Below are positions 7,807-59,116 of a DNA stretch of 64,000 nucleotides, one piece after another; within the stretch, counting starts at the first letter, position 1, and the number at the start of each line of letters is the position of its first letter. The translations under genes were made by a program, and so were the position numbers. This DNA is from an uncultured cyanobacterium. Lineage in GTDB: Bacteria; Cyanobacteriota; Cyanobacteriia; Cyanobacteriales; CAWUOF01. Below the pieces are notes generated by a model that worked only from the letters and a program-made list of their open reading frames with translations, was not told the origin of the DNA and ran no database searches. The stretch spans positions 320,001 to 384,000 of the forward strand of contig CAVUSO010000001.1 of NCBI GenBank assembly GCA_963744145.1. Reading direction: 5' to 3'.

Positions 7807-7904
7807 AATTAGGAGAAAATTGATGTTTTCGTTGAAATAAGTGCCAGAATTAAGCTTAATACTGAAATTGTTATATTTTACAGTTTACAAGTCTTTACGC
7901 GAGA
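7807..7904 (-). repeat. Conserved GUN4 3' element, copy 1
   Basis: Sense strand TCTCGCGTAAAGACTTGTAAACTGTAAAATATAACAATTTCAG...AAGCTTAATTCTGGCACTTATTTCAACGAAAACATC aligns with the copies at 9582, 17316 and 58993. Confidence 0.85.
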
Positions 7905-9377
7905 AAAAAACTGATAGATCGTACAGGACTGATCCAACAAATTACCCCACGCATAAAAATTCCCTACCCCCCATATACCCCACCATCCCCAACTTGCCGC
8001 AGCGGGGAGGTGACCAAAACGTGCGAATGCGGTGCTAAATGTTAGGTCACTATAGTCCAACCATTTTTCTCCTTTCTTCCATCCTACTTTTATAGCAAAT
8101 TTACGTTTTATTACGCTATCTGCATTTGGATGTCCACCAACATCTTTACTCTCCCATATCTGTTTTTGAACGCTAAACCCAAAACGACCATCAGAGTATT
8201 TCATCCATAACTGATCTATAGTGCGAAAGTCTTTACAGGGAAATTTTAACCAATCATCACCAGTGAGATATCTTTCTTTTGTATTAGCAGCTCTAAGTAC
8301 AAGATCATAAGTTTTTTGATCAGCCTCTTTCCATAACCTATCAGCTAATAAGTTACAGAGATGAGTGTAATCTATATCTCTTTCACTTTCAAGAATAATT
8401 TGAGTTTGTCCAGATACTGGTGATTGGGAAAATTGTGCGTTAGGCGTTGATATATTGGGTATTGACTGACGTACTTGTTTGTTAGGTACTGATTTAGAAC
8501 TAAGCATTTGCAATACTTCACTAGCAGACTGATAGCGATCGCCCAAAGTAACCGATATCATTTTATCTAAGATCATCGCTAAATCATTATTAATATTGAC
8601 TAGCGATCGCCATACCCATTTCATTTGATAAAAGTCAAACAGTTTATCGACATAATTACCGTTTTGTTCTTCTAATAAACAACCCGTCAAAAGTCTAATA
8701 CAAGTAACACCTAAACTATATAAATCACTAGCGGGAAAAGCATGACCCTGTAGTTGTTCTGGAGCTGCGTAACCAGGAGTACCAATATTTGTACCTGCTC
8801 TTGTAAGAACAGTACCCGTAAGTTGCTTGGATACTCCAAAGTCAATTAACATCAAACGATTATTGGCATCTCTAATAATATTATCTGGTTTAATATCTCT
8901 ATGAATTACATTCTTTTGATGCAGAAACTCTAAAACAGGTAGAAGTTGATTTAATAAATTCCTAATCTTTTCTTCATCAAATCTGCCGTTCTGTTGTAAT
9001 TCCTTCAATAAATCTTTTCCATCAATGAACTCTTGTACTAAATATAACCGTCCATCCTGTTCAAAAAATGCTAGCAAATCTGGTATTTGGGGATGTTTAC
9101 CTAAATCTTTTAATCTGACAGCTTCTTGTTTAAATAATTCTGTAGCTTTTTGTAATGCACTACCACCTTGCAACTGAGGTAGAAATTGTTTAATCACACA
9201 GAATGTGCCCAGTCGTTGTTCGTCTATTGATTTGAATGTTCTCCCAAAACCACCCTCTCCGAGAAATTCTACTGCTCGATAGCGATCGCCCAGTAACAAC
9301 CTATTACCGCAGCGCACACAAAACTTTGTCCCAGATGGGTTGATATTCTCACACTCAGGGTTTAGACATAAGCTCAT
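7878..9377 (-). CDS. Ser/Thr protein kinase with N-terminal Cys4 zinc ribbon and C-terminal GUN4-like domain
   Basis: CLNPEC..CVRC, GEGGFG, HRDIKPDN, DFG, APE; GUN4 motifs IDQLW..YSDGRFGFSVQKQIW and GHLP. Confidence 0.93.
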   Translation of the reverse strand: MSLCLNPECENINPSGTKFCVRCGNRLLLGDRYRAVEFLGEGGFGRTFKSIDEQRLGTFCVIKQFLPQLQGGSALQKATELFKQEAVRLKDLGKHPQIPDLLAFFEQDGRLYLVQEFIDGKDLLKELQQNGRFDEEKIRNLLNQLLPVLEFLHQKNVIHRDIKPDNIIRDANNRLMLIDFGVSKQLTGTVLTRAGTNIGTPGYAAPEQLQGHAFPASDLYSLGVTCIRLLTGCLLEEQNGNYVDKLFDFYQMKWVWRSLVNINNDLAMILDKMISVTLGDRYQSASEVLQMLSSKSVPNKQVRQSIPNISTPNAQFSQSPVSGQTQIILESERDIDYTHLCNLLADRLWKEADQKTYDLVLRAANTKERYLTGDDWLKFPCKDFRTIDQLWMKYSDGRFGFSVQKQIWESKDVGGHPNADSVIKRKFAIKVGWKKGEKWLDYSDLTFSTAFARFGHLPAAASWGWWGIWGVGNFYAWGNLLDQSCTIYQFFSRVKTCKL

Positions 9378-9581
9378 AACTTGTCAATAATCCACAGGTT
9401 TCGTGTATAAATAATAGCGGACAGTTAGCCCAAATGTCCAGTGAGGTGTCTTGTTACGGTGTGTTAAGCATTTTGTAGGCGATCGCTTAGATTGTGCGAG
9501 GTTTGATTGTGGGTTGATTAGAGGGCGATAGCTTTGGTTAGGTTTGGGGAGTGCGATCGCATATTTAGAATGATGTTATTC

Positions 9582-9707
9582 TTAGCTTCTGTGTCAGGTA
9601 TTGAGTTAGGGAAAAGCTGATTTTTTCGTAGAAATTAGTACCAAATTTAAGCTTGACAAATGACATGAAATTTTTATAACTCACAGGTTACAAGTCTTTG
9701 CGGAAGA
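9582..9707 (-). repeat. Conserved GUN4 3' element, copy 2
   Basis: CGCAAAGACTTGTAACCTGTGAGTTATAAAAATTTCA...TGTCAAGCTTAAATTTGGTACTAATTTCTACG...AACTCAATACCTGACAC. Confidence 0.85.
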
Positions 9708-11877
9708 TAAGAAACCAACCAGTCAGCTTATTCCGCAAATACGGACTACAATTCCCAAAAAGACCGGAAACGCCTGCCGGGAGGTGGCCAAGTGGAGCGG
9801 TAGTGTTCAAGGTTAGGTCATTATCGTTCAACCAATTGCCTCCTTTTCTCCATCCTACTTTATCAGCAAATTTATGTATTATTTCATAACCTGCATCAGG
9901 ATGTCCACCAACATCTTTACTTTCCCAGATTTGTTTTTGAACGCTAAACCCAAAATGACCATCAGAGTATTTAATCCATAACTGATCTATTGTGCGAAGG
10001 TCTTTATAGGGAAACTTTAACCAATCGTCATCATTGAGATATTGTCCATTTTCACAATTAGCAGCTTTGAGTACAACCCTATAAGTTTCTTCATCAGCTT
10101 CTTTCCATTTACCAACAGCTAATAAGTCACGGAGAAGACTGTAATCTATTTCTATTTCACTCTCAAGAATAAGCTCTAGTTGCATTTTACAGTTTGCAAG
10201 TCTTTGTGCGAGAAAAGATGGTTTCAACCCTCCAAATCCCTCACGCCCCACATCTCCTGTGCCCCCAATCCACTGTTCCGGTAATATAATACCTACACAA
10301 GGGAAGTGGCCTATAGGTGCATCGGTATTAAATGTAAGATTGTTATAATCTAACCACTTTCCTCCTTTTCTCCATCCTACTGTATCACCAAATTTACGTT
10401 CTATCTCTATTTCTTCTTCTATTCCTGCGTTTGGATTTCCACCAACAGTTTTACTTTCCCAGATTTGTTTTTGGACACTATATCCAAAACGACCATCAGA
10501 ATATTTTACCCATAGCTGATCTATGGTACGAAGGTCTTTACAGGGAAACTTTAACCAATCATCACCATTGAGATATCCGTCTTTTTCACGATTAGCAGAT
10601 TCAAGTAAAAGATGGTAAGTTTTTTCATCAGCATCTTTCCAGTAACCAGCAGCTAATAAGTTTCTAAGAGGAATGTAATCTATATCTCTTTCACTGTCTA
10701 GAATAAGTTCTGCTGCTGTTATATTTTGTTGTGGTGACGATGATATTACTTCAATTTGGTTTTGTGGATGTGATGTTAATTCTATTACTGGCTTCATGTC
10801 TTGATTTATTGTTTCATTTAATTCAGTAATAATCCTTTGCTGAATTTTTTCTACATCTGCATCACGTAAACATAAATGAACACTAGCCCATTCCTCTAAT
10901 TCTTTAATAACTTTATCATCTAAAGGATAATTTTTAGAAATTTTTTGTCTATATTCTTCTTCATAACGTTTTAAGCTTTCGTGATATAATTGATGATGCT
11001 TTATAACACTACTTATTATTTCTTCAGCTTGCTCATCAGAAAGCTGTAAGTTCTCTTGTTTTGTTTTTAAAATATCACGATTAAGCTTAGATATTTCTCC
11101 ATCTTTAATTCGCATTTCAACTTCCTGACAAAATCTTTTCTCAGGGGTAGGAGCCATACTTATCAAAATATTATATCCTTCATTATCTAGAATAATTTTA
11201 GGCTCCATTTTGGGCTTGACTTCCTTGACTTTTGCTTTGGCATATTTATGTAATTCTTGGATATGAATTTTACCATCACCATCTGTATCAGCAGCACCAG
11301 TTTCAATACCTTCTACTAGATGCTTTGTATAAACCGATAATTCAGAGCCTTCATGTTGAAATGAAGTCTGATTTTTTGAGGAAGAAGCTAGTATTACTCT
11401 TCCCTCTGCACCTAATTCTTTATCTAATAAATCAATATCTATACCTTTAGGTTGCCAACCAATCGCAAAAGCACCGCTATAACAACAGTCTAAAATAATT
11501 ATTTGACGCTTTGCATAGTTACCATGCTTTGACATTTTTTGGATGAAACTAGCTGAAGCAGCAGTGGCTAGGAAATTATTTTTTGTGGTAATCCGAGTTG
11601 CTAGATAAAGTTGACCATCATCGTCTTTAATACCATGTCCAGAAAAAAATAGTAGAATTAAATCATCTTTATTACTACTTTGAAATAGTTTTTGAATTTC
11701 TTCAGTCATCTGAAGGTATTCGGGATTAATTAAAAAATTAACACTATCAAACCCTCCCATTTCAGGATTTTCTAATACCCGTTTCATTGCCTTTACATCA
11801 TTAGGTGGTGCAGATAAAGGATTAATGTCTTCTCCATATTCGCTAACACCTATTAGTAATGCTATTTTTTTAGGCAT
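9688..11877 (-). CDS. Caspase-family (peptidase C14) protein with two tandem C-terminal GUN4-like domains
   Basis: KIALLIGVSEY, FSGHG and DCCYSG (His/Cys dyad intact); two GUN4 repeats. Confidence 0.9.
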   Translation of the reverse strand: MPKKIALLIGVSEYGEDINPLSAPPNDVKAMKRVLENPEMGGFDSVNFLINPEYLQMTEEIQKLFQSSNKDDLILLFFSGHGIKDDDGQLYLATRITTKNNFLATAASASFIQKMSKHGNYAKRQIIILDCCYSGAFAIGWQPKGIDIDLLDKELGAEGRVILASSSKNQTSFQHEGSELSVYTKHLVEGIETGAADTDGDGKIHIQELHKYAKAKVKEVKPKMEPKIILDNEGYNILISMAPTPEKRFCQEVEMRIKDGEISKLNRDILKTKQENLQLSDEQAEEIISSVIKHHQLYHESLKRYEEEYRQKISKNYPLDDKVIKELEEWASVHLCLRDADVEKIQQRIITELNETINQDMKPVIELTSHPQNQIEVISSSPQQNITAAELILDSERDIDYIPLRNLLAAGYWKDADEKTYHLLLESANREKDGYLNGDDWLKFPCKDLRTIDQLWVKYSDGRFGYSVQKQIWESKTVGGNPNAGIEEEIEIERKFGDTVGWRKGGKWLDYNNLTFNTDAPIGHFPCVGIILPEQWIGGTGDVGREGFGGLKPSFLAQRLANCKMQLELILESEIEIDYSLLRDLLAVGKWKEADEETYRVVLKAANCENGQYLNDDDWLKFPYKDLRTIDQLWIKYSDGHFGFSVQKQIWESKDVGGHPDAGYEIIHKFADKVGWRKGGNWLNDNDLTLNTTAPLGHLPAGVSGLFGNCSPYLRNKLTGWFLIFRKDL

Positions 11878-12612: not shown

Positions 12613-13515
12613 TCAAAGGCTAAATATTCTCTCATCAGTTAATACCTGCATAGATTGTCTTTTCTCCAAATTTTTCCAATGTTTCATAGCTTCTTTATAA
12701 CGCTCTTTTAATGCGCTTGCATCAGGTTTATTACAGTTATGCTTATTTAATTTTAAGAATGTATTATCATATTGCTGATAATGGCTTTTTTCTAAGCTAG
12801 GATGGATATGAATTTTTTTATTTTCATCAATTGCTATAAGATGAGCATCAAAAAGCTTATGAATATCAACACAAAGAAGCAATCCATTAGAAGGATCATT
12901 GTTTTGGTTTTTTTCGTAAGGCTCTATATGAGCAGCTTCTAAAAGTATTTGAATATCAGAATCAGTAATTAGACAACGATAATTATACAAATTTAACAAT
13001 TGTAGGCGGAATTTATACTGTCCTAGTCTATTAGCTAGTCTATTAGATTTAGATTGTATAAAATTTATAACATAAGGATCTGAAATAATAGCTCGATTAA
13101 GTTTCGCAAATTGAAGCTTTGCGTATTGAAAATTAGTTGATGGAAAAATAGAAAGCTGGCCATAATTTAGCTTCTCGTGATGTTTATTCAAGTAAGTTGT
13201 ATCCAACATCTTTAAGTCTATATATCCTAACTCTGCATAATCAAAAACTGCATCGTACAAATTCATTCCTTCAAAATTTGCATATTGAAGGTTTGCTCCT
13301 TCAAAGTTTGTTCCATCCAATTCAGATCCTCGAAAGTCAGCATTTTGAAGTTCTGCCCCTCGAAAGCTAGCATATTCAAGATTAGCACCCCGGAAATCTA
13401 CACCATTAAGAATCAAATGATCCAAAATTAGGTGATTTAAATCTACCGCTCGAAAATCTCGTTGCCCGTTTTCGTACTGAGCCTTAATTTTATCAATATC
13501 CATATTATGTATCAT
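12613..13515 (-). CDS. Pentapeptide-repeat protein fused to an HNH endonuclease
   Basis: A(D/N)FRG/ANFEG repeats; GQYKFR..LL..Y..RCLIT...LEAAHI..NGLLL..DIHKLFD. Confidence 0.85.
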   Translation of the reverse strand: MIHNMDIDKIKAQYENGQRDFRAVDLNHLILDHLILNGVDFRGANLEYASFRGAELQNADFRGSELDGTNFEGANLQYANFEGMNLYDAVFDYAELGYIDLKMLDTTYLNKHHEKLNYGQLSIFPSTNFQYAKLQFAKLNRAIISDPYVINFIQSKSNRLANRLGQYKFRLQLLNLYNYRCLITDSDIQILLEAAHIEPYEKNQNNDPSNGLLLCVDIHKLFDAHLIAIDENKKIHIHPSLEKSHYQQYDNTFLKLNKHNCNKPDASALKERYKEAMKHWKNLEKRQSMQVLTDERIFSL

Positions 13516-13617
13516 CCATTTTTTGTTTTTTGACCCGATGAAACTATGCTAACATATATAGAGGCGTTATGGCAAGATATGTGTAAGCCAGATTAGTGAA
13601 TCAAAAATCTTAACCAT

Positions 13618-14685
13618 CAGAAGTTACGCAGTTGAACTGGGGATGTGGTAAAAAAAGATCATGAATCCACCTAAATCCACGCCCCTCGAATACATTAACT
13701 TCCTGATTGCGGCAAAAGGCATACAGTTGTAGCGAAGCCGAGCGTGTTCAACCAATCGCAGAAAACCGAGCAGCCCACGATGCGACTTGTGTTGAGCGTA
13801 GTCGAAACATTAACCGTTTGCTGCATCGAAGGTCACCAGACCCCAATGAATTCTGGCAGGAAGCCAAAGACTATGTTGAGTTAAACCAAGGGGTTCTGGT
13901 CATTGATGATACAATGCTTGACAAGTGGTATGCCAAAAAGATGGAGTTGGTCAGTCGGCAATGGTCAGGGAAGCATAAACGTGTTGTCCAAGGCATCAAT
14001 CTGACTACCCTATTATGGTCAGATGGGGATAAACATATCCCATTAGACTATCGACTTTATGAGAAAGAAGTGGACGGGGCTACCAAAATGACCACTTTCG
14101 AGCCATGTTGCTTAATGCCCATGCCAGAGGCTTTCATGCCCAGTGTGTAGCAATTGAATAGTTGGTTTAGTTCTTTGGCCAATTTGAAATTAATTGCTAG
14201 TTATAGCTGGACTTGGTTGACTCGACTGAAATCTAATCGATTGGTAAATGCGGATCATACCGAAAACCGACCAATTAGGGAGGTAGCGTTAGCCCAAACG
14301 GGCACAGTAGTTCATCTGAAAGGTTATGGGTTCATTAAAGTATTCAAGATTGTTGCCCCAGACGGTGACATTGACTACTGGGCGACCAATGACTTACAGA
14401 TGAGCAGCTTAAAACGTTTACAGTGGGCGGAATTTGAATGGTCAATTGAGGAATATCATCGAGGTCTAAAGCAATGCTGTGGCGTGGAAAGATCCCAAGT
14501 TCGGTCGGCTCGCGCAAGGGCGTAATCACATTGGTTTGGCAATTCGGGCCTTTCTCCGTTTGGAGATGCACTGGTTTAACACTGGCATCAGTTGGTATGA
14601 GTCCAAAATTAGTATTGTGCGTGAAGCAGTCCGCTCTTACTTAGAGGCCCATTGGCTGTCTCTCCCGTCAACTGCGTAAGTCCTG
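13618..14685 (+). mobile_element. IS701-family insertion sequence (1068 bp)
   Basis: 18-bp terminal inverted repeats CAGAAGTTACGCAGTTGA / TCAACTGCGTAAGTCCTG; 5-bp target duplication ACCAT (13613-13617, 14686-14690); DDE transposase remnants. Confidence 0.9.
13661..14679 (+). pseudogene. IS701-family transposase, multiply frameshifted
   Basis: MNPPKS..YINFLIA start at 13661; motifs VIDDT, WSGKH, IEEYHRGLKQ and RNHIGLAIRAF are spread over several reading frames. Confidence 0.88.
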
Positions 14686-14955
14686 ACCATGACGAGGATG
14701 AAGTGTCAGAGTGTGGCTGGAAAAAACTAGCCTGTAGTCTTTACTACAGAAACTGCTTGTGCGCTCAAGCTAATGCAATATAGAACAACTACGGTAGGAT
14801 CGCTTTGTTGACAGGTTGTTGGAGTATGATCACACTAAAGAGCATATTAAGTCTTAATTATTAAAGTATTTTTAGCTGTGACATTTCAGATGGTGTAAAA
14901 CATCCACTCTAGATTTACTCAGGACTAAATTTTCAAGCAATTTGGCAACCTTTAA

Positions 14956-16635
14956 TCATTGTATTCGTCCCTGTAAAATAGCATTTTTAATTTCCAAGAG
15001 AGGTCCTAAAACATCTGGTGCAAGAGCCAATTGAAGTACCATCTCATAATCTTGTTGTGCCAAAGGATGTGTGTGCGAACCTAGATTGCGAATTCTAGAA
15101 ATATCAGTCCAGGCATCTATTACTCTGCTAGATAAGGAACTACCAATTGCCTGTTGAATCATTAAATCTAATCTTTCATTTGGTGAATTAGTCATAGTTA
15201 TAACTAGGTGTAAAGCATCTCCAAGAGTAATAAACCGATGACGACCACTTGCACGATTAACCCAATCTAACTGATTGATATCAACAGTTATTACTCTATT
15301 TCCTCTATGTCCTGTTTCTACAATTCCTCGTTTTTGTGGAAGCGTAGGATCATGCAGGGTAAAATATGTCGGCATAGTGATGTCACGCGCCGCTCTTGCA
15401 GCTTGAATCATCGATAAGTTTACTTCTAGTTCAAAAGCTTTCCATACACCTTGAGCGCCAGGTGTAAAATCAATATCCATCATTGGTTGTAGTCTTTGTG
15501 CAGCGGGATTTTGATTAACTATTGGTTGTGGTCTTTGTGCCGCAGGATTCCGATTAATTGGTTGTGGTCGTTGTGTAGCAGGATTTTGATCAATTGATTG
15601 TGGTCGTTGTGCAGCGGGATTTTGTGCAACAGGATTCCGATCAATTGGTTGTGGTCTTTGGATATTACGATTCTGTCCATATCCTCCCTGGGGTCTTCGT
15701 CTACCAAGAGGACCAATACCTTCAAGTGCGTTTTCTGCTAGACTTTCAAGAAAAGAGCCAACAGCAAGAGATGTTTCAATCATTACTGCTGATTCATCAT
15801 TAAGAAGCGGTGGAAGTTCGACTGTATTTTGCAAATTCTGAAGAACTCTTGCCGCAACAAATGCTGGAGCTATGAGCCTTCCCGTTGCATCTTCAATTAC
15901 AGCATCTTCCGATCCTATCCCTGTCAAATCAAGGTCTTCAAATTGCTGAGAACGATTGTTTCGCCTCAATGAGTTGAGACTATTTTCAACCATATCCAAT
16001 TGTCTACCAAGTTCATAGCGATAATCGTTAGCTTCTAGACCTCGTTCCGTGTCAAAAGTATTTAAAATGTTATAAAAAGCCCTTAATCCTTGACGATTTG
16101 ACTCATTTTGTAGACGATAATCTACTTGATCGCTACATATTGCTTCAAGGGTAGTAAATATATGCCCAATATTTGGAATTCCATATTGATCAGGAAGTCT
16201 TGCAAGTTCATTTAATTGCACATCGAGATGTTCTGATGAGGTTGGGGAAATCACGTATTCTAATTGCCAAAGATTTGTTGATGCAACAATGGCAGGAAGA
16301 GAATGCCAAGGAATGCCAAACAAACGTGCTATTTCCCGTATTAATGGTCCCTCGTTAGTTGTAAATGATAAAGTACCAGCAGTTGCCTGATAATTTCTCC
16401 ACCATCGTGAATTACTACGATCTTGCAGCCATTCATCTGGGGGATCTAACACGGCAAAAAAAGCAAGGTTTTCACCTGTACTTTCATGCAAATTCGCAAA
16501 TTCAGCTTTCAAATATTCAGTAAAAATTACATCACTTGGCTTGAAAAGAATTGCGACCTGTATTGGAAACCTTGCAAAATACTTTTGTGAAGGCGATCCC
16601 GCATTAAAGATATTTGTTTTTATTGGAAATACCAT
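14956..16635 (-). CDS. Hypothetical protein (559 aa) with internal 12-aa tandem repeats and a possible C-terminal HEPN-like motif (RNLGSH)
   Basis: Long ORF; RPQPINRNPAAQ-type repeats; Rx4H near the C-terminus. Confidence 0.75.
   Translation of the reverse strand: MVFPIKTNIFNAGSPSQKYFARFPIQVAILFKPSDVIFTEYLKAEFANLHESTGENLAFFAVLDPPDEWLQDRSNSRWWRNYQATAGTLSFTTNEGPLIREIARLFGIPWHSLPAIVASTNLWQLEYVISPTSSEHLDVQLNELARLPDQYGIPNIGHIFTTLEAICSDQVDYRLQNESNRQGLRAFYNILNTFDTERGLEANDYRYELGRQLDMVENSLNSLRRNNRSQQFEDLDLTGIGSEDAVIEDATGRLIAPAFVAARVLQNLQNTVELPPLLNDESAVMIETSLAVGSFLESLAENALEGIGPLGRRRPQGGYGQNRNIQRPQPIDRNPVAQNPAAQRPQSIDQNPATQRPQPINRNPAAQRPQPIVNQNPAAQRLQPMMDIDFTPGAQGVWKAFELEVNLSMIQAARAARDITMPTYFTLHDPTLPQKRGIVETGHRGNRVITVDINQLDWVNRASGRHRFITLGDALHLVITMTNSPNERLDLMIQQAIGSSLSSRVIDAWTDISRIRNLGSHTHPLAQQDYEMVLQLALAPDVLGPLLEIKNAILQGRIQ
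15483..15660 (-). repeat. Intragenic tandem repeat of about 36 bp (about 4.5 units)
   Basis: Recurrent ATTGGTTGTGGTC(G/T)TTGTGC..CAGGATT units. Confidence 0.85.
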
Positions 16636-16889
16636 AGGAGCTAACGAAAAATAGAATCTAATGTTGTATTTTTTGAATCGCAGATTTTGGATGGAAAAGT
16701 TGTCTAGCTTTTTGATAAAGGCATAAACTTACTTGCAACCAAAATAACCTTACTTATACCATCAAAGCACCGAACCCAATATTTGTCAACAGAATACCAG
16801 CACTACTCACTGCTTAAAGTTTATTAAGCCTTGTGCATCAATTATTTACTACTTGATCATCTACTCAAATAGAACATTTACAAGTTGTC

Positions 16890-17248
16890 GCGGAGAAGAG
16901 CTTACCGTTGGCTTAGGGGTCGGGATGAATCAGGCTGCCGATGGTTAGGGGCTGTTGATAGCTTGGCGATCGCGAAATGGCTAAAAAATACGGTTGGAAA
17001 CTGGTCGATATAGAGGAAACAAATAACGATATCCTACCTGTAGATTGTATATTTGACGGCCAAACCGAATTCCCAAAGTCCTATTATGATCACGATGAGG
17101 AGTAACAATAATGCGTAAGTGGATTGTTTTCCGTGCTGATGGACGACAACCTGGCGGGCTAACCCGCAAATATGCCCACACGGGGTCACTCACAAAAACT
17201 TTAGCCCAGAGGATCTCCTGGGTGCAGAAGGTATTCTCAAGCAATTAA
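16890..17248 (+). pseudogene. Remnants of two small hypothetical genes (..MAKKYGWKLVDIEE..ILPVDCIF.. and a short MRKWIVFRA..KYAHTGSLTK)
   Basis: Higher-GC stretch containing two short consecutive + strand frames; they look truncated, and the family is recalled only loosely. Confidence 0.4.
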
Positions 17249-17315
17249 CAAAAGCATTTAAAGTAACTAGGTATTAGTTATTGTCGCAAAATGTAAGCGA
17301 ATTATTGCCTATAAG

Positions 17316-17419
17316 CATTAGAGAAAATTTGATATTTTTGTAGTAATTAGTACCAAATTTTAGCTTGGCAAATGGCATGAAGTTGTTAGAGCTTAAAGGT
17401 TACAAGTCTTGGCGCGAGA
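17316..17419 (-). repeat. Conserved GUN4 3' element, copy 3
   Basis: TCTCGCGCCAAGACTTGTAACCTTTAAGCTCTAACAACTTCA...GCCAAGCTAAAATTTGGTACTAATTACTACAAAAATATC. Confidence 0.85.
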
Positions 17420-18818
17420 AAAGATCCGCGCAAAACCCCCAGAACCCTCCACCATCTACTATTACCACTACACCAAGGGCCCGCGCGGGAAGGTGGCCAG
17501 AAAGAGCAGTGATGTTAAATGTTAGATTACTATAGTCTAACCAGTTTCCTCCTTTTCTCCATCCTAATTTATCAGCAAATTTGTAATACGTATTCCAATC
17601 TGCATTAGGATGTCCACTAACACCCTGACTTTCCCAGATTTGTTTTTGAACGCTAAACCCAAAACGACCATTAGAATATTTTACCCATAACTTATCTATG
17701 GTGCGAAGGTCTTTACATGGAAACTTTAACCAATCATCACCAGTGAGATATTCCTCTTGTTCACGATTAGCAGCTTTAAGTACAAGATGATAAGTTTTCT
17801 TGTCAGCTTCTTTCCATTTTCTAGTAGCTAATAAGTCACGGAGAGGAGTGTAATCTATTCCTTTTTCACTTTCAAGATTATCTTGATTTTGTGGAGCTAT
17901 TGGTTGTGAAGAAAACTCGGTTTTAGGTATTGATTTAGAACTAAGTGCTTGCAATATTTCACTAGCAGATTGATAGCGATCACCCAAAGGAACCGATATC
18001 ATTTTATCTAAAAAAACACCCAAATCATTGCTAACACTAGCATATTGTCGCCACACCCATTTCATCTTATAAAAATCAAACAACTTATCTATATTGTTGC
18101 CATTTTGTTCTTCTAATAAACAACCTGTTAAAAGTCTAATACAAGTAACACCTAAACTATATAAATCACTAGCGGGAAAAGTTTGACCCTGTAATTGTTC
18201 TGGAGCTGTATAACCAGGAGTACCAACTGATGTACCCACTCTTGTCATTACAGTACCGCTTAATTGCTTGGATACACCAAAATCAATTAACATTAAACGA
18301 TTATTAGCATCTCTAATAATATTCTCAGGTTTAATATCTCTGTGAATTACATTATTTTTATGAATAAATTCTAAAACAGGTAGAAGTTGATTTAATAAAT
18401 TTTTAATTTTTTCCTCATTAAATTTGCTGTTTTGTTGTAGTTCCTTTAATAAATCTTGTCCGTCAATAAATTCTTGTACTAAATATAGCCGTCTATCTTG
18501 TTCAAAGAATGCTAATAAGTCAGGTATTTGGGGATGTTTACCTAAGTCCCTTAATCTGACAGCTTCTTGTTTAAATAATTCTGTAGCTTTCTGTAATGCT
18601 CCACTACCTTGCAACTGAGGTAGAAATTGTTTAATCACACAGAATGTGCCCAGTCGTTGCTCGTCTATTGATTTGAATGTTCTCCCAAAACCACCCTCAC
18701 CGAGAAATTGTACTGCTCGATAGCGATCGCCCAGTAACAACCTATTACCGCAGCGCACACAAAACTTTGTCCCAGATGGGTTGATATTCTCACACTCAGG
18801 GTTTAGACATAAGCTCAT
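17400..18818 (-). CDS. Ser/Thr protein kinase-GUN4, paralog of 7878..9377
   Basis: Near-identical N-terminus and kinase domain; different linker and C-terminal tip. Confidence 0.93.
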   Translation of the reverse strand: MSLCLNPECENINPSGTKFCVRCGNRLLLGDRYRAVQFLGEGGFGRTFKSIDEQRLGTFCVIKQFLPQLQGSGALQKATELFKQEAVRLRDLGKHPQIPDLLAFFEQDRRLYLVQEFIDGQDLLKELQQNSKFNEEKIKNLLNQLLPVLEFIHKNNVIHRDIKPENIIRDANNRLMLIDFGVSKQLSGTVMTRVGTSVGTPGYTAPEQLQGQTFPASDLYSLGVTCIRLLTGCLLEEQNGNNIDKLFDFYKMKWVWRQYASVSNDLGVFLDKMISVPLGDRYQSASEILQALSSKSIPKTEFSSQPIAPQNQDNLESEKGIDYTPLRDLLATRKWKEADKKTYHLVLKAANREQEEYLTGDDWLKFPCKDLRTIDKLWVKYSNGRFGFSVQKQIWESQGVSGHPNADWNTYYKFADKLGWRKGGNWLDYSNLTFNITALSGHLPARALGVVVIVDGGGFWGFCADLFSRQDL

Positions 18819-18994
18819 AACTTGTCAATAATCCACAGGTTTCGTGTATAAATAATAGCGGACAGTTAGCGCAAATGTCCAGTGAGGTGTCTTGTTACGG
18901 TGTGTTAAGCATTTTGTAGGCGATCGCTTTAAAATAGACATTACATATCATAAATTTTTCCAAAAATAGGTTATTCCCTCAATTATTCCTAAAC

Positions 18995-19231
18995 ATGATG
19001 ACAACCAAAGAGCAATTACTTGAAGAACTTGAAACCCTTCCCGAAGAACTCATTAGTGAAGCATTGGACTACATCTGCTTCATCAAAAATCGTTATAGTC
19101 TAAAACTGGAAGCCATTCGGGCGATCGCAAAACTCGACTCAGACTGGTGGGAAAACCTCAATAACTTCACCCCTGATTTTCTGGACGAGCGATCACAGCC
19201 TAACCTGCCCAACAGAGAGGACATATTTTGA
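18995..19231 (+). CDS. Antitoxin (DUF2281-like N-terminus, VapB-like C-terminus)
   Basis: ELETLPEELISEALDYI..; ..PDFLDERSQP..REDIF; overlaps the downstream PIN gene. Confidence 0.7.
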   Translation: MMTTKEQLLEELETLPEELISEALDYICFIKNRYSLKLEAIRAIAKLDSDWWENLNNFTPDFLDERSQPNLPNREDIF

Positions 19232-19632
19232 TGAGATTTCTGCTCGACACAAATATCTGTATTTATATTATCAAACAGAAGCCTATTTCCGTTCGTCAAC
19301 GTTTCCAATCAGTCAATACAGGACATATCGGTATTTCAATTGTTACACTTGCCGAATTGGAGTATGGTGCTGCTAAAAGTAAAAACCCTATAAGAAACCG
19401 TGAAACTCTTAAAGTATTCTGCGCTCCTTTCGAGATCATCGACTTTAATGAAGAAGATGCGCGAATTTTTGGCAAGATTCGTACTGATTTAGAGCAACGA
19501 GGACAGCCTATTGGCAGTTATGACTTGCTTATTGCCGCACAAGCCCTTAGTCGCGGTCTTATTATCGTAACGAACAATATTAAAGAATTTAGTCGCATTG
19601 ATGGGCTAGTTATTGAGAATTGGGTCAAATAG
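19228..19632 (+). CDS. vapC: VapC-family PIN-domain toxin
   Basis: FLLDTNICIY, ELEYG, IGSYDLLIAAQA, VTNN..EFSRI..L..ENW. Confidence 0.92.
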   Translation: MMRFLLDTNICIYIIKQKPISVRQRFQSVNTGHIGISIVTLAELEYGAAKSKNPIRNRETLKVFCAPFEIIDFNEEDARIFGKIRTDLEQRGQPIGSYDLLIAAQALSRGLIIVTNNIKEFSRIDGLVIENWVK

Positions 19633-32613: not shown

Positions 32614-33357
32614 TTAGTTGCCGAGATCCGCTTCGGTACATAATACAGGGTAGAAAACAGCAATAGCATGAGTCAGACGAGTTTCGTGGGAATCACCAAA
32701 AAAAACTGAAAACATAGCAGTGCAAATCAAGGCTGTTAAAAAAGTCGCTAAAATAATACCTAGCATGACATCCAAACCTAAAACGAACATATTACCACCG
32801 ATAAAATGATTCCCAGCTATTCCAAAAGCACCTCCACCAATACAACCAGTAAATAAACATAAGCATCCAGATAAGCACCCATACCACACTTCTATATTAT
32901 TACAACCCATTAATTGTCCTTGGGTCAAAGTATAATGGGTCAAAATATTACAAGGAAGGTGTCCTGAAACTCCCCCCAAGTCAAATTTAAGGTCTTTCTC
33001 ATGCAGCCATTGTCCTTCGTATCTCCAACCCACTTGATTACTAAACTTGATCAGATTATCCTGCTCTTGATCTGGCTCCGAATTTTCGACAACACTTTTC
33101 CAGATTCGTTTTTGCACACTAAAACCAAAGCGTCCTTGTGAATACTCTACCCATAACTGGTCGATCGTGCGAAGGTCAGTTAATGGGAAATTGAGCCAAT
33201 CTGTTTTCTGAAGAAATCCTTTTTTCTCACACTTAGCAGCTTGGAGCATAAGTAGACGAGTTTCTTGATCAGCTTTTTTCCATTCACCATTAGTTAACAA
33301 GTCTTCCAGGTGACGATAATCTATGCCCACTTCACTTGCTAGAATAATTTCACTCAT
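32614..33357 (-). CDS. Stand-alone GUN4-like domain protein with a C-terminal hydrophobic (transmembrane) extension
   Basis: IDQLW..YSQGRFGFSVQKRIW, GHLP, then Gly/Cys-rich hydrophobic segments. Confidence 0.85.
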   Translation of the reverse strand: MSEIILASEVGIDYRHLEDLLTNGEWKKADQETRLLMLQAAKCEKKGFLQKTDWLNFPLTDLRTIDQLWVEYSQGRFGFSVQKRIWKSVVENSEPDQEQDNLIKFSNQVGWRYEGQWLHEKDLKFDLGGVSGHLPCNILTHYTLTQGQLMGCNNIEVWYGCLSGCLCLFTGCIGGGAFGIAGNHFIGGNMFVLGLDVMLGIILATFLTALICTAMFSVFFGDSHETRLTHAIAVFYPVLCTEADLGN

Positions 33358-45330: not shown

Positions 45331-45376
45331 CTTAGAGTTTAGCTTAAACAAAAGCTGTATTTTTTGCTAAAAATCA

Positions 45377-47902: not shown

Positions 47903-47991
47903 CTAGCATTTAGCTAAATTGTCTGAGATTTTTGGGAAAATTGAGTACAATGATTAATTAAACAGAAAAATATAGTTTTTGTTAAAAATTC

Positions 47992-50439: not shown

Positions 50440-50485
50440 CTTAGAGTTTAGCTGAAACAAAAGCTGTATTTTTTGCTAAAAATTC

Positions 50486-52930
50486 ATGAAAATCTGGGAA
50501 ATAGTAGCATATTTGGGATTAAGCAACTTACTGGTCGCTCCCTCCGTACTAGGGCAAATCATACCCGATCGCACCGTAGGAACTACAGTAACACCAAATC
50601 TAACGATTAATGGGATATTGAGCGATCGCATTGATCACGGAACCATCCGAGGGAGCAACTTATTTCACAGTTTTCAAGAATTCAACATTGGAACGGGAAG
50701 GGGAGCTTATTTTACCAATCCAGCAGGAATCGTCAACATTTTTAGTCGGATTACAGGTAATAATTCTTCCCAGATCGATGGCACCTTGGGAGTGTTAGGT
50801 AATGCCAATCTATACTTACTCAATCCCAACGGCATACTTTTTGGTCAGAATGCACGACTTGATCTCAACGGGTCATTTCTAGCAACTACAGCGAATCAGA
50901 TTAACTTCACAGATGGGACTGTTTTTAGTGCTACCAATCCTCAGACATCTCCCTTACTCACCATTAGTGTACCAGTTGGTTTACAGTTTGGGAGCAACCC
51001 GGGTCCTATTACCGTTCTAGGGATCGGACAAAATATTAATTTAGGCTCCCCCCTTAGTCCTAAAAAATTGGATCTTAATATTGGTTCAACTGGATTACAG
51101 GTACAACCTCAAAAAACTCTAGTCTTAGTGGGTGGGAATCTAGCCCTAAATGGAGGGTTACTCTCTGCACCAGGAGGACGAATTGAGTTGGGGAGTGTGA
51201 TGGGAGGAACTGTTGCTCTTAATCCAAACCTGCAAGGGTGGACATTGAGTTATGGAAATGCTGACCACTTTGGCAATATTCAGATGACCCAAGGAGCTTT
51301 AGCTGCTGTAGTTGAAAGCAATACAGGGTTAAATGTAGGCGCTATCCAAATTCAGGGACAACAAGTCAACATCCAGGATGGTTCCTTAGTAGCGGTGCAA
51401 AATCAAGGTAACCAAACGGTCGGTGATATCAACATCAATGCTACAGAGTCACTCCATATTATTGGTAAATCAGCAGATTTTAGCACTCCCACTGCGGTAG
51501 TGGATGAAACCATATCTACAGGTACAGCAGGTAATATTACGATTAATACTCCACAATTGACTCTTGACCAAGGTGCCCAAGTCTACAGCCGAAGCTTTAG
51601 TTCAGGGAAAGGTGGTGACCTGATCCTAAACATTACAGATGAGTTGCAGGTAGGTGGTGTTGCCCCGCTCGATCCGCAGCAGATAGTCAGTTCTATCTTT
51701 ACCTATAACTATGAAGATGGTAACGGAGGTAATCTATTTATTTCCGCTCCACATATATTGATTTTTAATGGTGGTAATATAGGAGCTAGACCATTGGGTC
51801 AAGGAAATGGTGGTAATTTAACAGTCAAGGCAGATACTATTCAAGTGACAAGTGCAGGAGCGCCTCCTGGTATATTTTTTAGTGCGCTAACCGCTTCAAG
51901 CTTAGGTCAAGGTCATTCCGGTAATGAAACAATCGACACAAACACCCTCTCAATCCAAGATGGCGGAGTGGTGTCAGCTTCTAGCTTTGGTACAGGAAAT
52001 TCAGGTACTGTCACCATCAATGCGTCTGAATTAGTTGAGTTGAGTGGAACTAAAGACGCACTCCCAAGTTATATTGGTGCTGTAGTTCGCAGTTTTTTTG
52101 GTCAAACTACCTCTCCTGCTAATTCAGGTAATATCATAATTAATACTCCTACTCTGAATATTAGCAATGGTGCAACAGTCTTTGTTCAAAACCAAGGTCT
52201 TGGTAATGCGGGTAGTTTGAGTATTAATGCTGGCACAATCCAACTTGATCATGGGGGAAGCATCTCCGCATCTACACAATCAGGGGAAGGGGGAAATATT
52301 AACCTCCAGGTTCAAGATTTGCAGATGCGTCATGGTAGTTTCATTAGTGCAGAAGCGGGTGGTAGTGGTAATGGCGGTAATATTAATATCAATGCTTCTG
52401 TGATTGGGGGATTAGAAAACAGTGATATTACTGCCAATGCAGTCAACGGTCGGGGTGGTAATATTTTAATTGAGAGCCAAGGTATTTTTCTTTCGACCGA
52501 TAGCAACATTACTGCTTCTTCCCAACTAGGGATTAGTGGTACTATTCATGTATCTAACCCTAACTTACAACGGCAAAATGTTGTAGTTCTTTCTACCTCT
52601 AATTTTTCCAACCAAGAACAGGTATTAGCTAGCAATTGTTTGACTCGTCGCAACAGTCAACAGGGAACTTTTGTAGTTACAGGTAACGGTGGTTTACCAG
52701 AAACACCTGATCATAGCTTGATTCCCTATGATGTACTTCAGGTGAGAGCTGTGCATGAAGGCAGATCAATCGGCAATAGAAAACTACCACAAGCGATCGC
52801 TAATTCCTGGCATTCTAGAGACTTAATTCAAGAAGCAACCGGATTTGCGTTTACCTCAGATGGCAAAGTTACACTTGTCGCTCATCCAAACCAGGTATCA
52901 ACCCCGGATTCTTTGATCTGTTTTTGGTAA
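50486..52930 (+). CDS. Filamentous haemagglutinin/TPS protein, copy 5
   Basis: Same motifs as copy 2. Confidence 0.92.
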   Translation: MKIWEIVAYLGLSNLLVAPSVLGQIIPDRTVGTTVTPNLTINGILSDRIDHGTIRGSNLFHSFQEFNIGTGRGAYFTNPAGIVNIFSRITGNNSSQIDGTLGVLGNANLYLLNPNGILFGQNARLDLNGSFLATTANQINFTDGTVFSATNPQTSPLLTISVPVGLQFGSNPGPITVLGIGQNINLGSPLSPKKLDLNIGSTGLQVQPQKTLVLVGGNLALNGGLLSAPGGRIELGSVMGGTVALNPNLQGWTLSYGNADHFGNIQMTQGALAAVVESNTGLNVGAIQIQGQQVNIQDGSLVAVQNQGNQTVGDININATESLHIIGKSADFSTPTAVVDETISTGTAGNITINTPQLTLDQGAQVYSRSFSSGKGGDLILNITDELQVGGVAPLDPQQIVSSIFTYNYEDGNGGNLFISAPHILIFNGGNIGARPLGQGNGGNLTVKADTIQVTSAGAPPGIFFSALTASSLGQGHSGNETIDTNTLSIQDGGVVSASSFGTGNSGTVTINASELVELSGTKDALPSYIGAVVRSFFGQTTSPANSGNIIINTPTLNISNGATVFVQNQGLGNAGSLSINAGTIQLDHGGSISASTQSGEGGNINLQVQDLQMRHGSFISAEAGGSGNGGNININASVIGGLENSDITANAVNGRGGNILIESQGIFLSTDSNITASSQLGISGTIHVSNPNLQRQNVVVLSTSNFSNQEQVLASNCLTRRNSQQGTFVVTGNGGLPETPDHSLIPYDVLQVRAVHEGRSIGNRKLPQAIANSWHSRDLIQEATGFAFTSDGKVTLVAHPNQVSTPDSLICFW

Positions 52931-58134: not shown

Positions 58135-58370
58135 AGTTCAATATCCTTGGGAAAATTTCCCCACATCTCACGTCTTGTTTCAGCAAGTTCTTCTTCAGTA
58201 ATATTTATATCTAAATGTGCCCATATTCCTTCTAAACTCTTCCGAGGTCGTTTAACATTAATTCTAGTTTTCAAAAACTCCGCAAAATCCAAAAGTTCCT
58301 GTTGTTTTTCTGGTGGCAATACTTCTAATATTTCAACTACTGTCTGACTAATACTGGTAATCACAGTCAT
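58131..58370 (-). CDS. DUF2281-family antitoxin
   Basis: LPPEKQQELLDFAEFL..SLEGIWA..REMW; overlaps the PIN start; likely start MTVITS at 58370. Confidence 0.8.
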   Translation of the reverse strand: MTVITSISQTVVEILEVLPPEKQQELLDFAEFLKTRINVKRPRKSLEGIWAHLDINITEEELAETRREMWGNFPKDIEL

Positions 58371-58529
58371 TTTGTTAATCCTCCTTGGCTGATCAAATTT
58401 GATTTGCCCCAATTTGTTAATCATCAATCGAGGGAACAGGCGAGATATCCATTCCTTATTTAGATTGTAGCAACAAATCTAAATTTTCACCATTTAAGAT
58501 CCCAACCAGAATACTCATTAATTCTCTGA

Positions 58530-59012
58530 GATCATCAGGAACACGGTATAAATGCAAATCTTGCACTACAAAGTGAAAGAAATATAGATTACGCTCCTCT
58601 ACGTGAATTATTAGCTGCTGGTAAATGGAAAGATGCTGATTGGAAAACTTATGAGCTTGTACTTAAAGCTGCTAATCGTGAAAAAGAAAGATATCTCACT
58701 GGTGATGATTGGGTAAAATTTCCCTGTAAATATCTTCGCACTATAGATCAGTTATGGGTAAAATATTCTGATGGTCGTTTTGGTTTCAGCGTCCAAAAAC
58801 AAATATGGGAGAGTAAGGAAATTGGAGGATATCCCAAGGCTGGAAGTGCGATCAAGCGCAAATTGGGTGATAAAGTAGGGTGGAGAAAAGGAGGCAATTG
58901 GTTGAGCTATGATGACCTAACTTTTAACACCTCGGCTCCCGTGGGCCACCTTCCGTTGTTGGGGGGTTGGTGGGTTTGGGGGGGGTCTCTTCTCTCGCGC
59001 AAAGACTTGTAA
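58530..59012 (+). pseudogene. Start-less GUN4-like domain cassette (160 open codons), missed by the ORF track
   Basis: Frame is open from the TGA at 58527 to the TAA at 59010: ..LQSERNIDYAPLRELLAAGKWKDAD..IDQLWVKYSDGRFGFSVQKQIW..GHLPLLGGWWVWGGSLLSRKDL*; no in-frame ATG. Confidence 0.88.
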
Positions 59013-59116
59013 CCTGTAAGATATAACAATTTCAGGCCATTGTCAAGCTTATTTTTGGTACTAATTTCTACGCAAACATCGGCTTTTTCCAAACTCAATA
59101 CCTGGCACTGACCTAG
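58993..59116 (+). repeat. Conserved GUN4 3' element, copy 4
   Basis: TCTCGCGCAAAGACTTGTAACCTGTAAGATATAACAATTTCAGGCCATTGTCAAGCTTATTTTTGGTACTAATTTCTACGCAAACATC..AACTCAATACCTGGCAC. Confidence 0.88.

What the first reader, a model, noticed from the sequence alone, without database searches (positions are those of the whole stretch)
7807..59116. Candidate new diversification system: hypervariable, variable-length, G-rich C-terminal segments in GUN4 domains, bounded by a conserved cis element
Seen: five otherwise highly similar GUN4 domains diverge completely between the GH(L/F)P codons (GGYCACYTYCC) and a conserved DNA block with consensus TCTCGCGYAAAGACTTGTAAMCTGTAARATATAAC. The variable segments are 7905-8003 (99 nt), 9708-9777 (70 nt), 10214-10299 (86 nt), 17420-17486 (67 nt) and 58956-58992 (37 nt). 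They cannot be aligned by eye. The three counted are strongly G-rich on the coding strand (37/99, 29/67 and 20/37 G; the last has no A) in an AT-rich genome, and they encode Gly/Trp/Val-rich loops. Four copies continue into a conserved non-coding tail. The domains sit behind kinase and caspase domains. Known: cyanobacterial DGRs diversify C-terminal ligand-binding domains on similar kinase and caspase chassis, but by largely length-preserving A-to-N changes copied from a template repeat. Inference: a different site-directed process, such as untemplated or junctional nucleotide addition or capture of short DNA, rewrites this tip to build a receptor repertoire. No reverse transcriptase, recombinase or template is visible in this window.
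Basis: partly seen in the sequence, partly recalled or inferred. Interest (0 to 1): 0.93.

Follow-up and report, generated by a model that had tools for sequence, protein, structure and literature searches.

The report
Transposase-linked hypervariable GUN4 sensor tips
Many cyanobacterial signalling genes end in a short, constantly rewritten DNA segment beside a conserved control element and a single-strand DNA-cutting transposase gene, which points to a protein-diversifying system that needs no reverse transcriptase.

Summary
All five tips are real and the feature is phylum-wide. 110 tips from many cyanobacterial genera are 20-159 nt, 39% G/32% T, random in frame, yet purged of in-frame stops. 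They differ wholly between alleles with 100%/98.6% identical flanks. No template was found; this is not a DGR.

The tail is a ~125-nt fixed-spacing element. It holds three-frame stops, a weak hairpin and an antisense promoter; Trichodesmium dRNA-seq has a TSS 3 nt from my prior prediction. It faces an HUH/Y1 TnpA-REP (RAYT) gene or its C-terminal remnant in 40 of 120 loci, always convergent (controls 0/56, 0/600), including window 59219-59326. The same subfamily and distal motif flank prochlorosin precursors (published preprint) and cyanobactin precursors.

Best reading (0.6): RAYT nicks the junction, and error-prone repair rewrites GUN4's ligand loop. Causality is unshown, and many genomes with variable tips lack an intact RAYT. 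This scan noted these tips before, elsewhere in this genome.

The parts
7878..9377 (-). Ser/Thr kinase-GUN4 gene (target 1)
   Evidence: Pfam Pkinase + GUN4
7905..8003 (-). hypervariable G/T-rich tip, 99 nt, block read as FSRVKTCKL
7775..7911 (-). cis element type A (CT-rich junction, hairpin block, stops, tail; distal motif decayed); lower end approximate
9688..11877 (-). caspase-GUN4-GUN4 gene (targets 2 and 3)
   Evidence: Pfam Peptidase_C14 + two GUN4
9708..9777 (-). hypervariable tip, 70 nt, block read as FRKDL*
9591..9714 (-). cis element with distal motif at 9600-9591
10214..10299 (-). hypervariable tip, 86 nt, internal; block (10213-10194) read through as LAQRLANCKM into the second GUN4
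   Evidence: one contig of run X1 spans it with no difference
17400..18818 (-). Ser/Thr kinase-GUN4 gene (target 4)
   Evidence: aligns to PDB GUN4 up to GHLP
17420..17486 (-). hypervariable tip, 67 nt, block read as FSRQDL*
17290..17426 (-). cis element type A (distal motif decayed); lower end approximate
58530..59012 (+). GUN4 domain frame without a listed start codon (probably a 5'-truncated gene; target 5)
58956..58992 (+). hypervariable tip, 37 nt, no A; block read as LLSRKDL*
58986..59108 (+). complete ~125-nt cis element: TCTCTTC junction, hairpin block 58993-59005, spaced stops, distal motif 59099-59108
59018..59046 (-). sigma-70-like antisense promoter (TTGACA, 17 nt, TATCTT) pointing into the tip; expected start about 59007-59010
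   Evidence: 1 site; shuffles 0.5 +/- 0.7, weak alone; homologous position is an aTSS in Trichodesmium
59219..59326 (-). C-terminal remnant of the TnpA-REP (RAYT) HUH gene, convergent with target 5
   Evidence: tblastn E 0.001; profile A1 25.3 bits, positions 224-254; translation
32614..33357 (-). sixth GUN4 gene without the element and without a G/T-rich tip (internal control)

Best explanation
A semi-domesticated, mobile HUH (Y1) tyrosine nuclease of the TnpA-REP/RAYT group 1 (subclass 2.1) type drives localized hypermutation of whatever coding segment lies 5' of its cognate ~125-nt element. Here that segment is the C-terminal part of the GUN4 alpha6/alpha7 ligand loop.

Shown: (a) the anatomy GUN4 > tip > element < RAYT; (b) hypervariability; (c) selection for an open frame; (d) antisense transcription from the element plus internal sense starts, in Trichodesmium.

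Inferred, my committed order: (1) Convergent transcription opens the junction as single-stranded DNA. (2) RAYT, held by the distal motif and hairpin and possibly brought to the fork by a clamp-type Q-x-x-L-[PW] tail motif, cuts the coding strand at a CT step of the TCTCTTC junction and stays on the element side as a 5'-phosphotyrosine. (3) The free 3'-OH of the tip is trimmed and re-extended by a host polymerase with slipped self-copies and G/T-biased additions. (4) RAYT reseals whichever 3'-OH arrives. (5) Three-frame stops and protein-level selection keep viable products.

The enzyme works in cis or in trans and decays often, leaving C-terminal remnants and frozen tips. Conserved flanks let alleles spread by recombination. 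Confidence 0.6 is for RAYT-driven diversification; the strand, cut site and polymerase are about 0.3.
For: Linkage: 40 of 120 block-bearing loci have a RAYT hit within 1.2 kb, all on the opposite strand, most ending 95-230 nt from the block; controls 0 of 56 upstream and 0 of 600 random windows. It was the only recurrent neighbour (11 loci; next clusters 6 or fewer). In 121 genomes, 15 of 15 with a near-full RAYT carry the block; 28 of 34 with any subfamily hit versus 22 of 86 without (my hand classification; kin and linkage inflate this).

The same subfamily (E about 1e-91) faces prochlorosin loci. The distal motif is shared: 16 of 20 picocyanobacterial loci and 51 of 117 GUN4 tails, 49 of them at offset 106-107. 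It also faces anacyclamide/piricyclamide-family precursors (TIGR04446 over cut-off). Three unrelated hypervariable target classes thus share one enzyme family and motif.

Enzyme motifs are intact: NH[VI]HY and YIH-NP, 63-74% identity across orders. The best fold match is E. coli TnpA-REP 4er8 (E 1.1e-3, weak model).

Transcription: aTSS 4045428 (17,070.5 reads, 3 nt from the prediction in note 5) and 265757 (824.5 reads) map to element columns 14 and 16 of the two Trichodesmium GUN4 genes that face full-length RAYTs. Strong internal sense TSS lie 305 and 266 nt upstream; chance about 1e-4.

A tip that lost CTCTTC is nearly unchanged across three genomes whose upstream DNA is only 80-89% identical. 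Direct repeats of 12 nt or more occur in 20 of 167 tip regions versus 2 of 122 controls. Conservation steps up between junction positions -6 (65% C) and -5 (94% T), fitting C^T cutting and resealing to any 3'-OH as described for TnpA-REP (PMC3479197).
Against: No cleavage, mutant or within-population variant was observed; one search had only 3-8x contigs, identical across the one tip spanned.

Variable tips persist without an intact enzyme. None of 5 Dolichospermum/Anabaena draft genomes has a full-length copy. Only 3 of 17 genomes of genus g42 have the full GUN4-facing copy, while 11 of 17 carry the target flank. 22 of 86 RAYT-negative genomes carry the block. This genome's only near-full copy has an 8-residue insertion, an early TAA and no Q-x-x-L motif.

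Tips facing intact RAYTs are not more G/T-rich (0.71 versus 0.70-0.74), and their excess of duplications is borderline (5 of 19 versus 15 of 148, p 0.056). Identical tips recur in several metagenome contigs. Cyanobactin cores are in frame and barely biased (6 cores, G 0.30, T 0.27), so the G/T bias is not a general RAYT signature. Element types do not cluster on the RAYT tree (7 changes versus 6.9 shuffled). The hairpin is weak (z 0.2 to -1.2 for 6 of 8 folds). Part of the block's conservation is explained by stops; 4 other Trichodesmium elements have no listed TSS. The prochlorosin preprint withdrew its causal claim.
Confidence: 0.6

Rival explanations
1. RAYT only mobilizes, or rides with, the GUN4 cassette (one-ended transposition or exon-shuffling-like grafting). 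The tip is a tolerant loop that drifts fast by slippage, unequal exchange and strand-biased mutation under convergent transcription; the three-frame stops make that tolerable.
For: Patchy enzyme with abundant targets. RAYT-GUN4 units on 5 plasmid records. Related tips show patchwise indels and duplications. Stops in three frames in 110, 113 and 89 of 120 tails. Earlier scan note e1-7751981 reached this view.
Against: Complete turnover between alleles with 100%/98.6% flanks, and in 5 of 5 orthologous-like pairs, far exceeds neutral drift. The G/T bias has sharp borders: wobble positions just upstream stay A/C-rich. Loss of CTCTTC coincides with a frozen tip (one lineage only). The same enzyme and motif sit behind three unrelated hypervariable classes.
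Confidence: 0.22
2. RAYT cuts at the junction and captures foreign or genomic single-stranded oligonucleotides through its 5'-phosphotyrosine, so tips are acquired DNA.
For: The chemistry allows any incoming 3'-OH (PMC3479197). Unalignable tips of any length.
Against: No genomic source: best hits 13-25 nt, like shuffles, for 28 of 30 tips. A uniform coding-strand bias (G>C in 105 of 110) is not expected from random capture. Phage and plasmid sources were not searched tip by tip.
Confidence: 0.08
3. The antisense RNA, or a host terminal-transferase or error-prone polymerase acting at the transcribed element, rewrites the tip without RAYT catalysis (for example RNA-templated repair).
For: A strong aTSS starts 2 nt before the hairpin and reads through the tip. 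The genome holds an intact 494-aa RT of unassigned type and a CRISPR RT.
Against: No RT or polymerase gene recurs near 120 loci. It does not explain intact catalytic motifs in the linked RAYT.
Confidence: 0.07
4. Remote targets of a diversity-generating retroelement.
For: Same kinase/caspase chassis as DGR targets (PMC7517822). A truncated DGR-type RT and CLec genes are in the genome. Tips are A-poor.
Against: No template repeat. Lengths vary freely and in all frames, C is depleted as well, and there is no codon-position pattern. The genome's CLec ends are C-rich and near fixed in length.
Confidence: 0.03

Closest known systems
procA-facing TnpA-REP of marine picocyanobacteria (Laurenceau et al., bioRxiv 10.1101/2020.03.09.984088; whole text read; supplements not seen)
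   Same: Same enzyme subfamily (full-length match, E about 1e-91). Gene and target always facing, many C-terminal fragments, conserved intergenic DNA and distance, indel-rich hypervariable segment. Shared distal motif found here.
   Different: Targets here are GUN4 sensor domains and cyanobactin precursors across the phylum; the authors thought the link unique to picocyanobacterial lanthipeptides and withdrew the causal claim. The GUN4 element has three-frame stops, an antisense promoter and a CT-rich junction instead of a terminator-like hairpin. Tips are G/T-biased and frame-free.
RAYT / TnpA-REP subclass 2.1 (group 1, TIRYT) (PMC6006769, PMC5581495 passages; E. coli enzyme PMC3479197 passages)
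   Same: HUH motif, Y-x-x-x-NP signature, about 250 aa with C-terminal extension, low copy number, some on plasmids.
   Different: One-sided element facing the gene's 3' end rather than flanking REPs or terminal inverted repeats. Below the NF047646 cut-off (60 versus 80 bits). Linked to protein-coding variation.
Cyanobacterial DGRs with kinase/caspase-CLec targets, and VMAP ternary systems (PMC7517822, PMC7159879 passages)
   Same: C-terminal ligand-binding tip on signalling chassis, remote targets, 3' cis element. One plasmid copy sits in a MoxR operon, the setting in which PMC7159879 lists GUN4 and DGR-linked FGS effectors.
   Different: No RT, no template, not adenine-specific, not length-preserving, different fold.
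Junctional diversity in V(D)J joining (recalled, not tested)
   Same: Works like it: a transposase-derived nuclease at a fixed signal, trimming and biased additions, random frame filtered by selection.
   Different: Single-strand HUH chemistry, no segment joining, no terminal transferase identified.
Canonical GUN4 (PDB 1y6i, 1z3x; PMC1084334 passages)
   Same: Domain aligns up to GHLP (Pro208 of Synechocystis GUN4).
   Different: The tip replaces residues after Pro208, which include Leu210 and the porphyrin-binding Arg214/Arg217, so the ligand is probably not fixed.

Membership tests
Diversity-generating retroelement | Intact DGR reverse transcriptase | tested here: not met
   The only DGR-type RT ends shortly after YLDD; none near 120 outside loci
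Diversity-generating retroelement | Template repeat homologous to the variable region | tested here: not met
   (own genome, 96% complete)
Diversity-generating retroelement | Adenine-specific, largely length-preserving changes with codon-position pattern | tested here: not met
   20-159 nt, all frames, A and C both depleted, same composition at all codon positions
RAYT/TnpA-REP class 2 (linked enzyme) | HUH motif and catalytic Y-x-x-x-NP | tested here: met
   NH[VI]HY and YIH-NP invariant in A1; signature from PMC6006769; PF01797 over cut-off for the genome's copy
RAYT/TnpA-REP class 2 (linked enzyme) | NCBIfam NF047646 curated cut-off | tested here: not met
   60.2 bits versus 80, E 1.9e-16, one protein tested
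RAYT subclass 2.1 / group 1 | Long C-terminal extension; affinity to the picocyanobacterial clade assigned to 2.1 | tested here: met
   about 250 aa; full-length match to procA-linked enzymes; assignment
RAYT subclass 2.1 / group 1 | C-terminal helix-turn-helix and terminal inverted repeats | tested here: inconclusive
   Model tail pLDDT mostly below 55; no second end seen by eye upstream of 11 genes; no formal TIR search
RAYT (any) | Site-specific ssDNA cleavage and strand transfer | not testable with these tools
   needs biochemistry
procA-TnpA-REP system | Enzyme and target facing, C-terminal fragments, conserved spacing | tested here: met
   40 of 40 hits convergent; fixed offsets
procA-TnpA-REP system | Shared intergenic motif | tested here: met
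   distal motif in 16 of 20 picocyanobacterial loci and 51 of 117 GUN4 tails
procA-TnpA-REP system | Target is a lanthipeptide precursor, with a terminator-like hairpin | tested here: not met
   targets are GUN4 domains and cyanobactin precursors; hairpin differs
procA-TnpA-REP system | G-quadruplex at the 5' border of the variable segment | not tested
   no G4 prediction run
IS200/IS605 insertion sequence | Short TnpA with hairpins at both ends and near-identical copies | tested here: not met
   long protein, NF033573 23 versus 55 bits; 1-2 divergent full copies per genome in the order sample

The most novel reading that the evidence does not exclude
Cyanobacteria carry a general, reverse-transcriptase-free diversity generator. 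A domesticated HUH transposase, aimed by a portable ~125-nt element with its own antisense promoter, nicks DNA and lets a host polymerase write random G/T-rich junction sequence into ligand-binding loops (GUN4 sensors) and peptide cores (cyanobactins, prochlorosins). This would be a bacterial counterpart of V(D)J junctional diversity and the missing cause of RiPP core hypervariability.
Probability: 0.4. Interest if true: 0.96.

Novelty: new variant of a known kind. Interest (0 to 1): 0.84.

Why it matters
Few targeted diversification mechanisms are known in bacteria. How prochlorosin and cyanobactin cores become hypervariable is an open question, and the one preprint that proposed TnpA-REP as the cause withdrew the claim for lack of evidence. 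GUN4 tips give an independent, phylum-wide target class with a defined element, a mapped antisense start and cultured strains that keep full-length enzyme and targets (Trichodesmium IMS101, Nostoc plasmids). That makes the question directly testable. If true, this is a compact one-gene plus 125-nt tool for randomizing a protein loop in vivo, and a new function for RAYT group 1. It also suggests that GUN4-like domains are variable receptors rather than fixed tetrapyrrole sensors.

Tried and rejected
Reads: only one holder, at 66% of the words, low-depth contigs, possibly the source sample; no RNA holder listed. No variant tips were seen; uninformative on activity.

Own genus has no other genome. 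The pattern was mis-built (0 even in this genome) and is uninformative. Viral contigs: block 0 hits, enzyme 0 confirmed. PDB sequence search with A1: none. The AlphaFold model was weak (pLDDT 53.6); no fold match reached E 0.001.

My first -10 register (columns 30-25) was replaced by columns 25-20 (TAnnnT in 94 of 119); both overlap stop codons, and a top-strand placement scored as well in the naive scan. Hairpin strand by folding energy: undecided. A fixed insertion point (shared prefixes only) was rejected: both prefixes and suffixes are shared among related tips. All-frame stop avoidance as the cause of A-depletion was rejected: only in-frame stops are depleted (6 versus 96 and 132). A short iterated RNA template is not supported: dinucleotide odds 0.82-1.34. 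Co-evolution of enzyme and element type is not shown (40 rows; fragments under 75 aa and duplicates left out). procA core composition was not tested properly: my pattern extracted 1 core.

Not used: homologue searches of the large protein sets, the complex prediction, Rfam, and tip-by-tip searches of phage or plasmid collections.
Full report
VERDICT. The tips are not DGR products. The tail is a ~125-nt element that faces an HUH tyrosine transposase gene (TnpA-REP/RAYT) and starts an antisense RNA. The best reading (0.6) is RAYT-driven hypermutation of the GUN4 ligand loop; no step of the catalysis was observed.

1. OBSERVATION. All five junctions are at the stated places, and the G counts match. 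The bias is G+T. The genome (7.7 Mb, 4 contigs, 96% complete) has 54 GUN4 matches. Of 47 copies whose GHLP end I could place, 30 carry a recognisable 3' block (21 type A as in the window, 9 of a second type B) and 17 do not. G+T in the first 30 nt is 0.78 versus 0.57 (p 3e-5; random 0.50), and 0.89 for type B. The window's five domains are only 77-82% identical upstream. The tandem array at C1:7458205-7461372 has four units 92-96% identical with unrelated tips.

2. SPREAD AND STATISTICS. A few are chance hits. The 110 tips (6,876 nt) are A 0.18, C 0.11, G 0.39, T 0.32 at all three codon positions, against A 0.34, G 0.22 just upstream. Lengths are 20-159 nt, mod 3 44/30/36. In-frame stops number 6 against 113 expected; the other frames have 96 and 132. 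The tips are therefore translated and filtered, while their composition is set at DNA level. The block is read in all three frames and is followed by stops 7 nt apart in 110, 113 and 89 of 120 tails (idea taken from earlier scan notes). The tip starts after the proline that aligns with Pro208 of Synechocystis GUN4. It replaces the end of the alpha6/alpha7 loop with Leu210, Arg214 and Arg217, the porphyrin-binding residues (PMC1084334 and PMC8967248, passages).

3. TURNOVER. Among 24 distinct tips behind one shared flank (Microcystis-type genomes and metagenome contigs), 7 of 276 pairs are related (z above 3). All 5 pairs with at least 96% upstream and 95% downstream identity are unrelated, including L154/L169 (100%, 98.6%). 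L094/L169 share a prefix and islands, so change can be patchwise. One tip whose CTCTTC is lost is almost the same in three genomes with 80-89% upstream identity. Identical tips recur in four sets of metagenome contigs, so turnover is not every few generations. Direct repeats of 12 nt or more lie in 20 of 167 tip regions and 2 of 122 upstream controls; next to intact enzymes 5 of 19 versus 15 of 148 (p 0.056).

4. NO TEMPLATE. Best genomic matches of 30 tips are 13-25 nt and beat all 20 shuffles in 2 cases. Flank profiles find only more GUN4 copies. The three RTs are a CRISPR RT beside cas1, a 494-aa RT of unassigned type and a truncated DGR-type RT. Eight CLec genes are present; the five ends that printed correctly are C-rich and near fixed in length, unlike the GUN4 tips.

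5. THE LINKED ENZYME. Clustering 869 neighbouring ORFs gave one recurrent neighbour: a ~254-aa protein with NH[VI]HY and YIH-NP. Its NF047646 score is E 1.9e-16, below cut-off; the best fold match is E. coli TnpA-REP (weak model). A profile finds it or its C-terminal remnant behind 40 of 120 blocks, always on the opposite strand; controls 0 of 56 and 0 of 600. Two of the 40 (L052, L126) are atypical, and 48 loci had under 1 kb of downstream DNA. In this genome 3 of 30 block copies pass, one being window 59219-59326; a longer remnant lies at C1:4710627-4711010. The only near-full copy (C1:6188688-6189446) is damaged, faces a small double-glycine-type peptide ORF beside an ABC exporter, shares the type-B tail motif and groups with a type-B-facing copy (100/99). 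In 121 genomes of the order, 15 of 15 with a near-full copy have the block; 28 of 34 with any subfamily hit versus 22 of 86 without. Of 45 enzyme loci of 60 bits or more (some overlapping), 21 face GUN4 or a block, 8 face RiPP precursors and 16 face nothing I recognised. Two precursors pass TIGR04446 and one passes TIGR03678. Five plasmid records carry the gene; the three opened face GUN4-type ends. 31 of 37 full-length copies match a Q-x-x-L-[PW] tail motif resembling the clamp motif QL[SD]LF cited in PMC6006769; its function is inferred.

6. THE ELEMENT. About 125 nt with almost no indels (35 sequences): TCTCTTC junction, 13-nt imperfect palindrome, stops, spaced short motifs, and a distal motif at offset 106-107. 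From column frequencies I predicted an antisense promoter and wrote the expected Trichodesmium start (about 4045431) before looking. Table S1 of PMC4143802 lists an aTSS at 4045428 (17,070.5 reads, row 355 of 6,080) and another at 265757 (824.5 reads), at element columns 14 and 16. Internal sense starts lie 305 and 266 nt upstream. Both genes face full-length enzymes. Four other elements in that genome have no listed start. Chance for 2 of 6 is about 1e-4. The paper's main text does not mention GUN4. The window's copy has a 10-of-12 promoter match at 59046-59018.

7. MECHANISM. Shown: anatomy, linkage, turnover, selection for frame, and convergent transcription in one species. Established for the family: E. 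coli TnpA-REP cuts single strands at C^T at a distance from its hairpin and stays on the 5' end, and any 3'-OH could resolve it (PMC3479197, passages). Inferred: transcription exposes the strand, the enzyme cuts at the CT junction (conservation rises from 65% at -6 to 94% at -5), a host polymerase trims, slips and adds G/T-rich bases, and the enzyme reseals. The strand, site and polymerase are uncertain (about 0.3). Against causality: intact enzyme is missing from 5 of 5 Dolichospermum/Anabaena drafts, and the full GUN4-facing copy from 14 of 17 g42 genomes. Tips next to intact enzymes are no more biased, cyanobactin cores are not G/T-rich, element types do not track the tree, and the hairpin is weak. 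Rivals: mobilization plus ordinary fast drift (0.22), capture (0.08), RNA- or host-only rewriting (0.07), DGR (0.03).

8. WHAT IS KNOWN. bioRxiv 10.1101/2020.03.09.984088 (whole text; supplements not seen, and they may list cyanobacterial neighbours) describes facing TnpA-REP/procA pairs with C-terminal fragments. It calls the link unique to marine picocyanobacteria and adds a note that causality is not supported. Those enzymes match my profile at E about 1e-91 (9 of 81 genomes) and share the distal motif (16 of 20 loci), so this is the same system on new targets. PMC6162287 notes a transposase between a cyanobactin precursor and its neighbour, type not checked (passages). PMC10783134 only cites the preprint. 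PMC7517822 and PMC7159879 mention GUN4 as an N-terminal domain or effector without variable tips (passages). PMC6006769 and PMC5581495 give the RAYT classes (passages). Searches of the open library found no paper on hypervariable GUN4 tips or a GUN4-RAYT link; subscription journals are not covered. The V(D)J comparison and the term double-glycine leader are recalled. Earlier notes of this scan describe the same tips elsewhere in this genome; one names the same preprint (seen).

9. SCORES. New variant of a known, proposed but unproven kind; interest 0.84. Most novel reading: a general RT-free diversity generator of cyanobacteria, probability 0.4, interest 0.96.

Noticed in passing
G000 C1:6188100-6189446 (L181): The genome's only near-full RAYT is damaged and faces a small peptide ORF with a double-glycine-type leader end, next to secretion-adaptor and peptidase-ABC-exporter-like genes; a possible fourth target class.
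   Followed up: partly
L184, L192, L198, L199, L259-L263, L270, L275: Cyanobactin precursor genes face the same RAYT subfamily; their cores end at a CT-rich step followed by a possible hairpin, and several share the distal motif.
   Followed up: partly
G000 C1:416566, 2923112, 3024293, 7455751-7460064, 7499237: A second element type (B) with a different block; its tips are the most G/T-rich in the genome (0.89). The same block occurs in L185 and L189.
   Followed up: partly
G000 C1:5012329-5012829 (L003): Truncated DGR-type reverse transcriptase with no template seen; eight CLec/FGE-sulfatase genes elsewhere look like orphaned DGR targets.
   Followed up: partly
G000 C1:5091611-5093986 and 3189607-3191088: Stand-alone RT followed by cas1, cas2 and a CRISPR array; and a 494-aa RT of unassigned, possibly abortive-infection type.
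   Followed up: no
L248:6001-11904 (plasmid NZ_CP060823.1): RAYT faces a GUN4 protein in a MoxR operon; its hairpin is degenerate and its tip is not G/T-rich. L249 is similar.
   Followed up: partly
L237 and L235 (Trichodesmium Tery_2618, Tery_0178): Strong internal sense starts inside the GUN4 domain (16,529.5 and 8,621 reads) 305 and 266 nt upstream of the antisense starts.
   Followed up: partly
G000 tips at C1:4855922, 4971714, 7015662 and window 32614-33357: Four paralogues share a C-[DN]-x-x-T-H-Y start of the loop before diverging, a sign of an older retained 5' part.
   Followed up: no
window 15-6693: Nitrogen-fixation genes: NifU, cysteine desulfurase, NifB-like radical SAM, serine acetyltransferase, homocitrate synthase.
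   Followed up: no
window 40227-52930: Five genes with a TPS secretion domain in a row (four of about 815-840 aa; the first is split), beside CHAT-TPR, CHASE2 and DUF928 genes.
   Followed up: no
window 12613-21401: Pentapeptide-HNH gene, broken DDE transposase, PIN toxin-like gene and a 538-aa GIY-YIG protein between the GUN4 genes.
   Followed up: no
window 7300-8090 and 59400-59600: Short interspersed repeats directly behind the tails; high summed contig depth at 7300-8090 in run X1.
   Followed up: no
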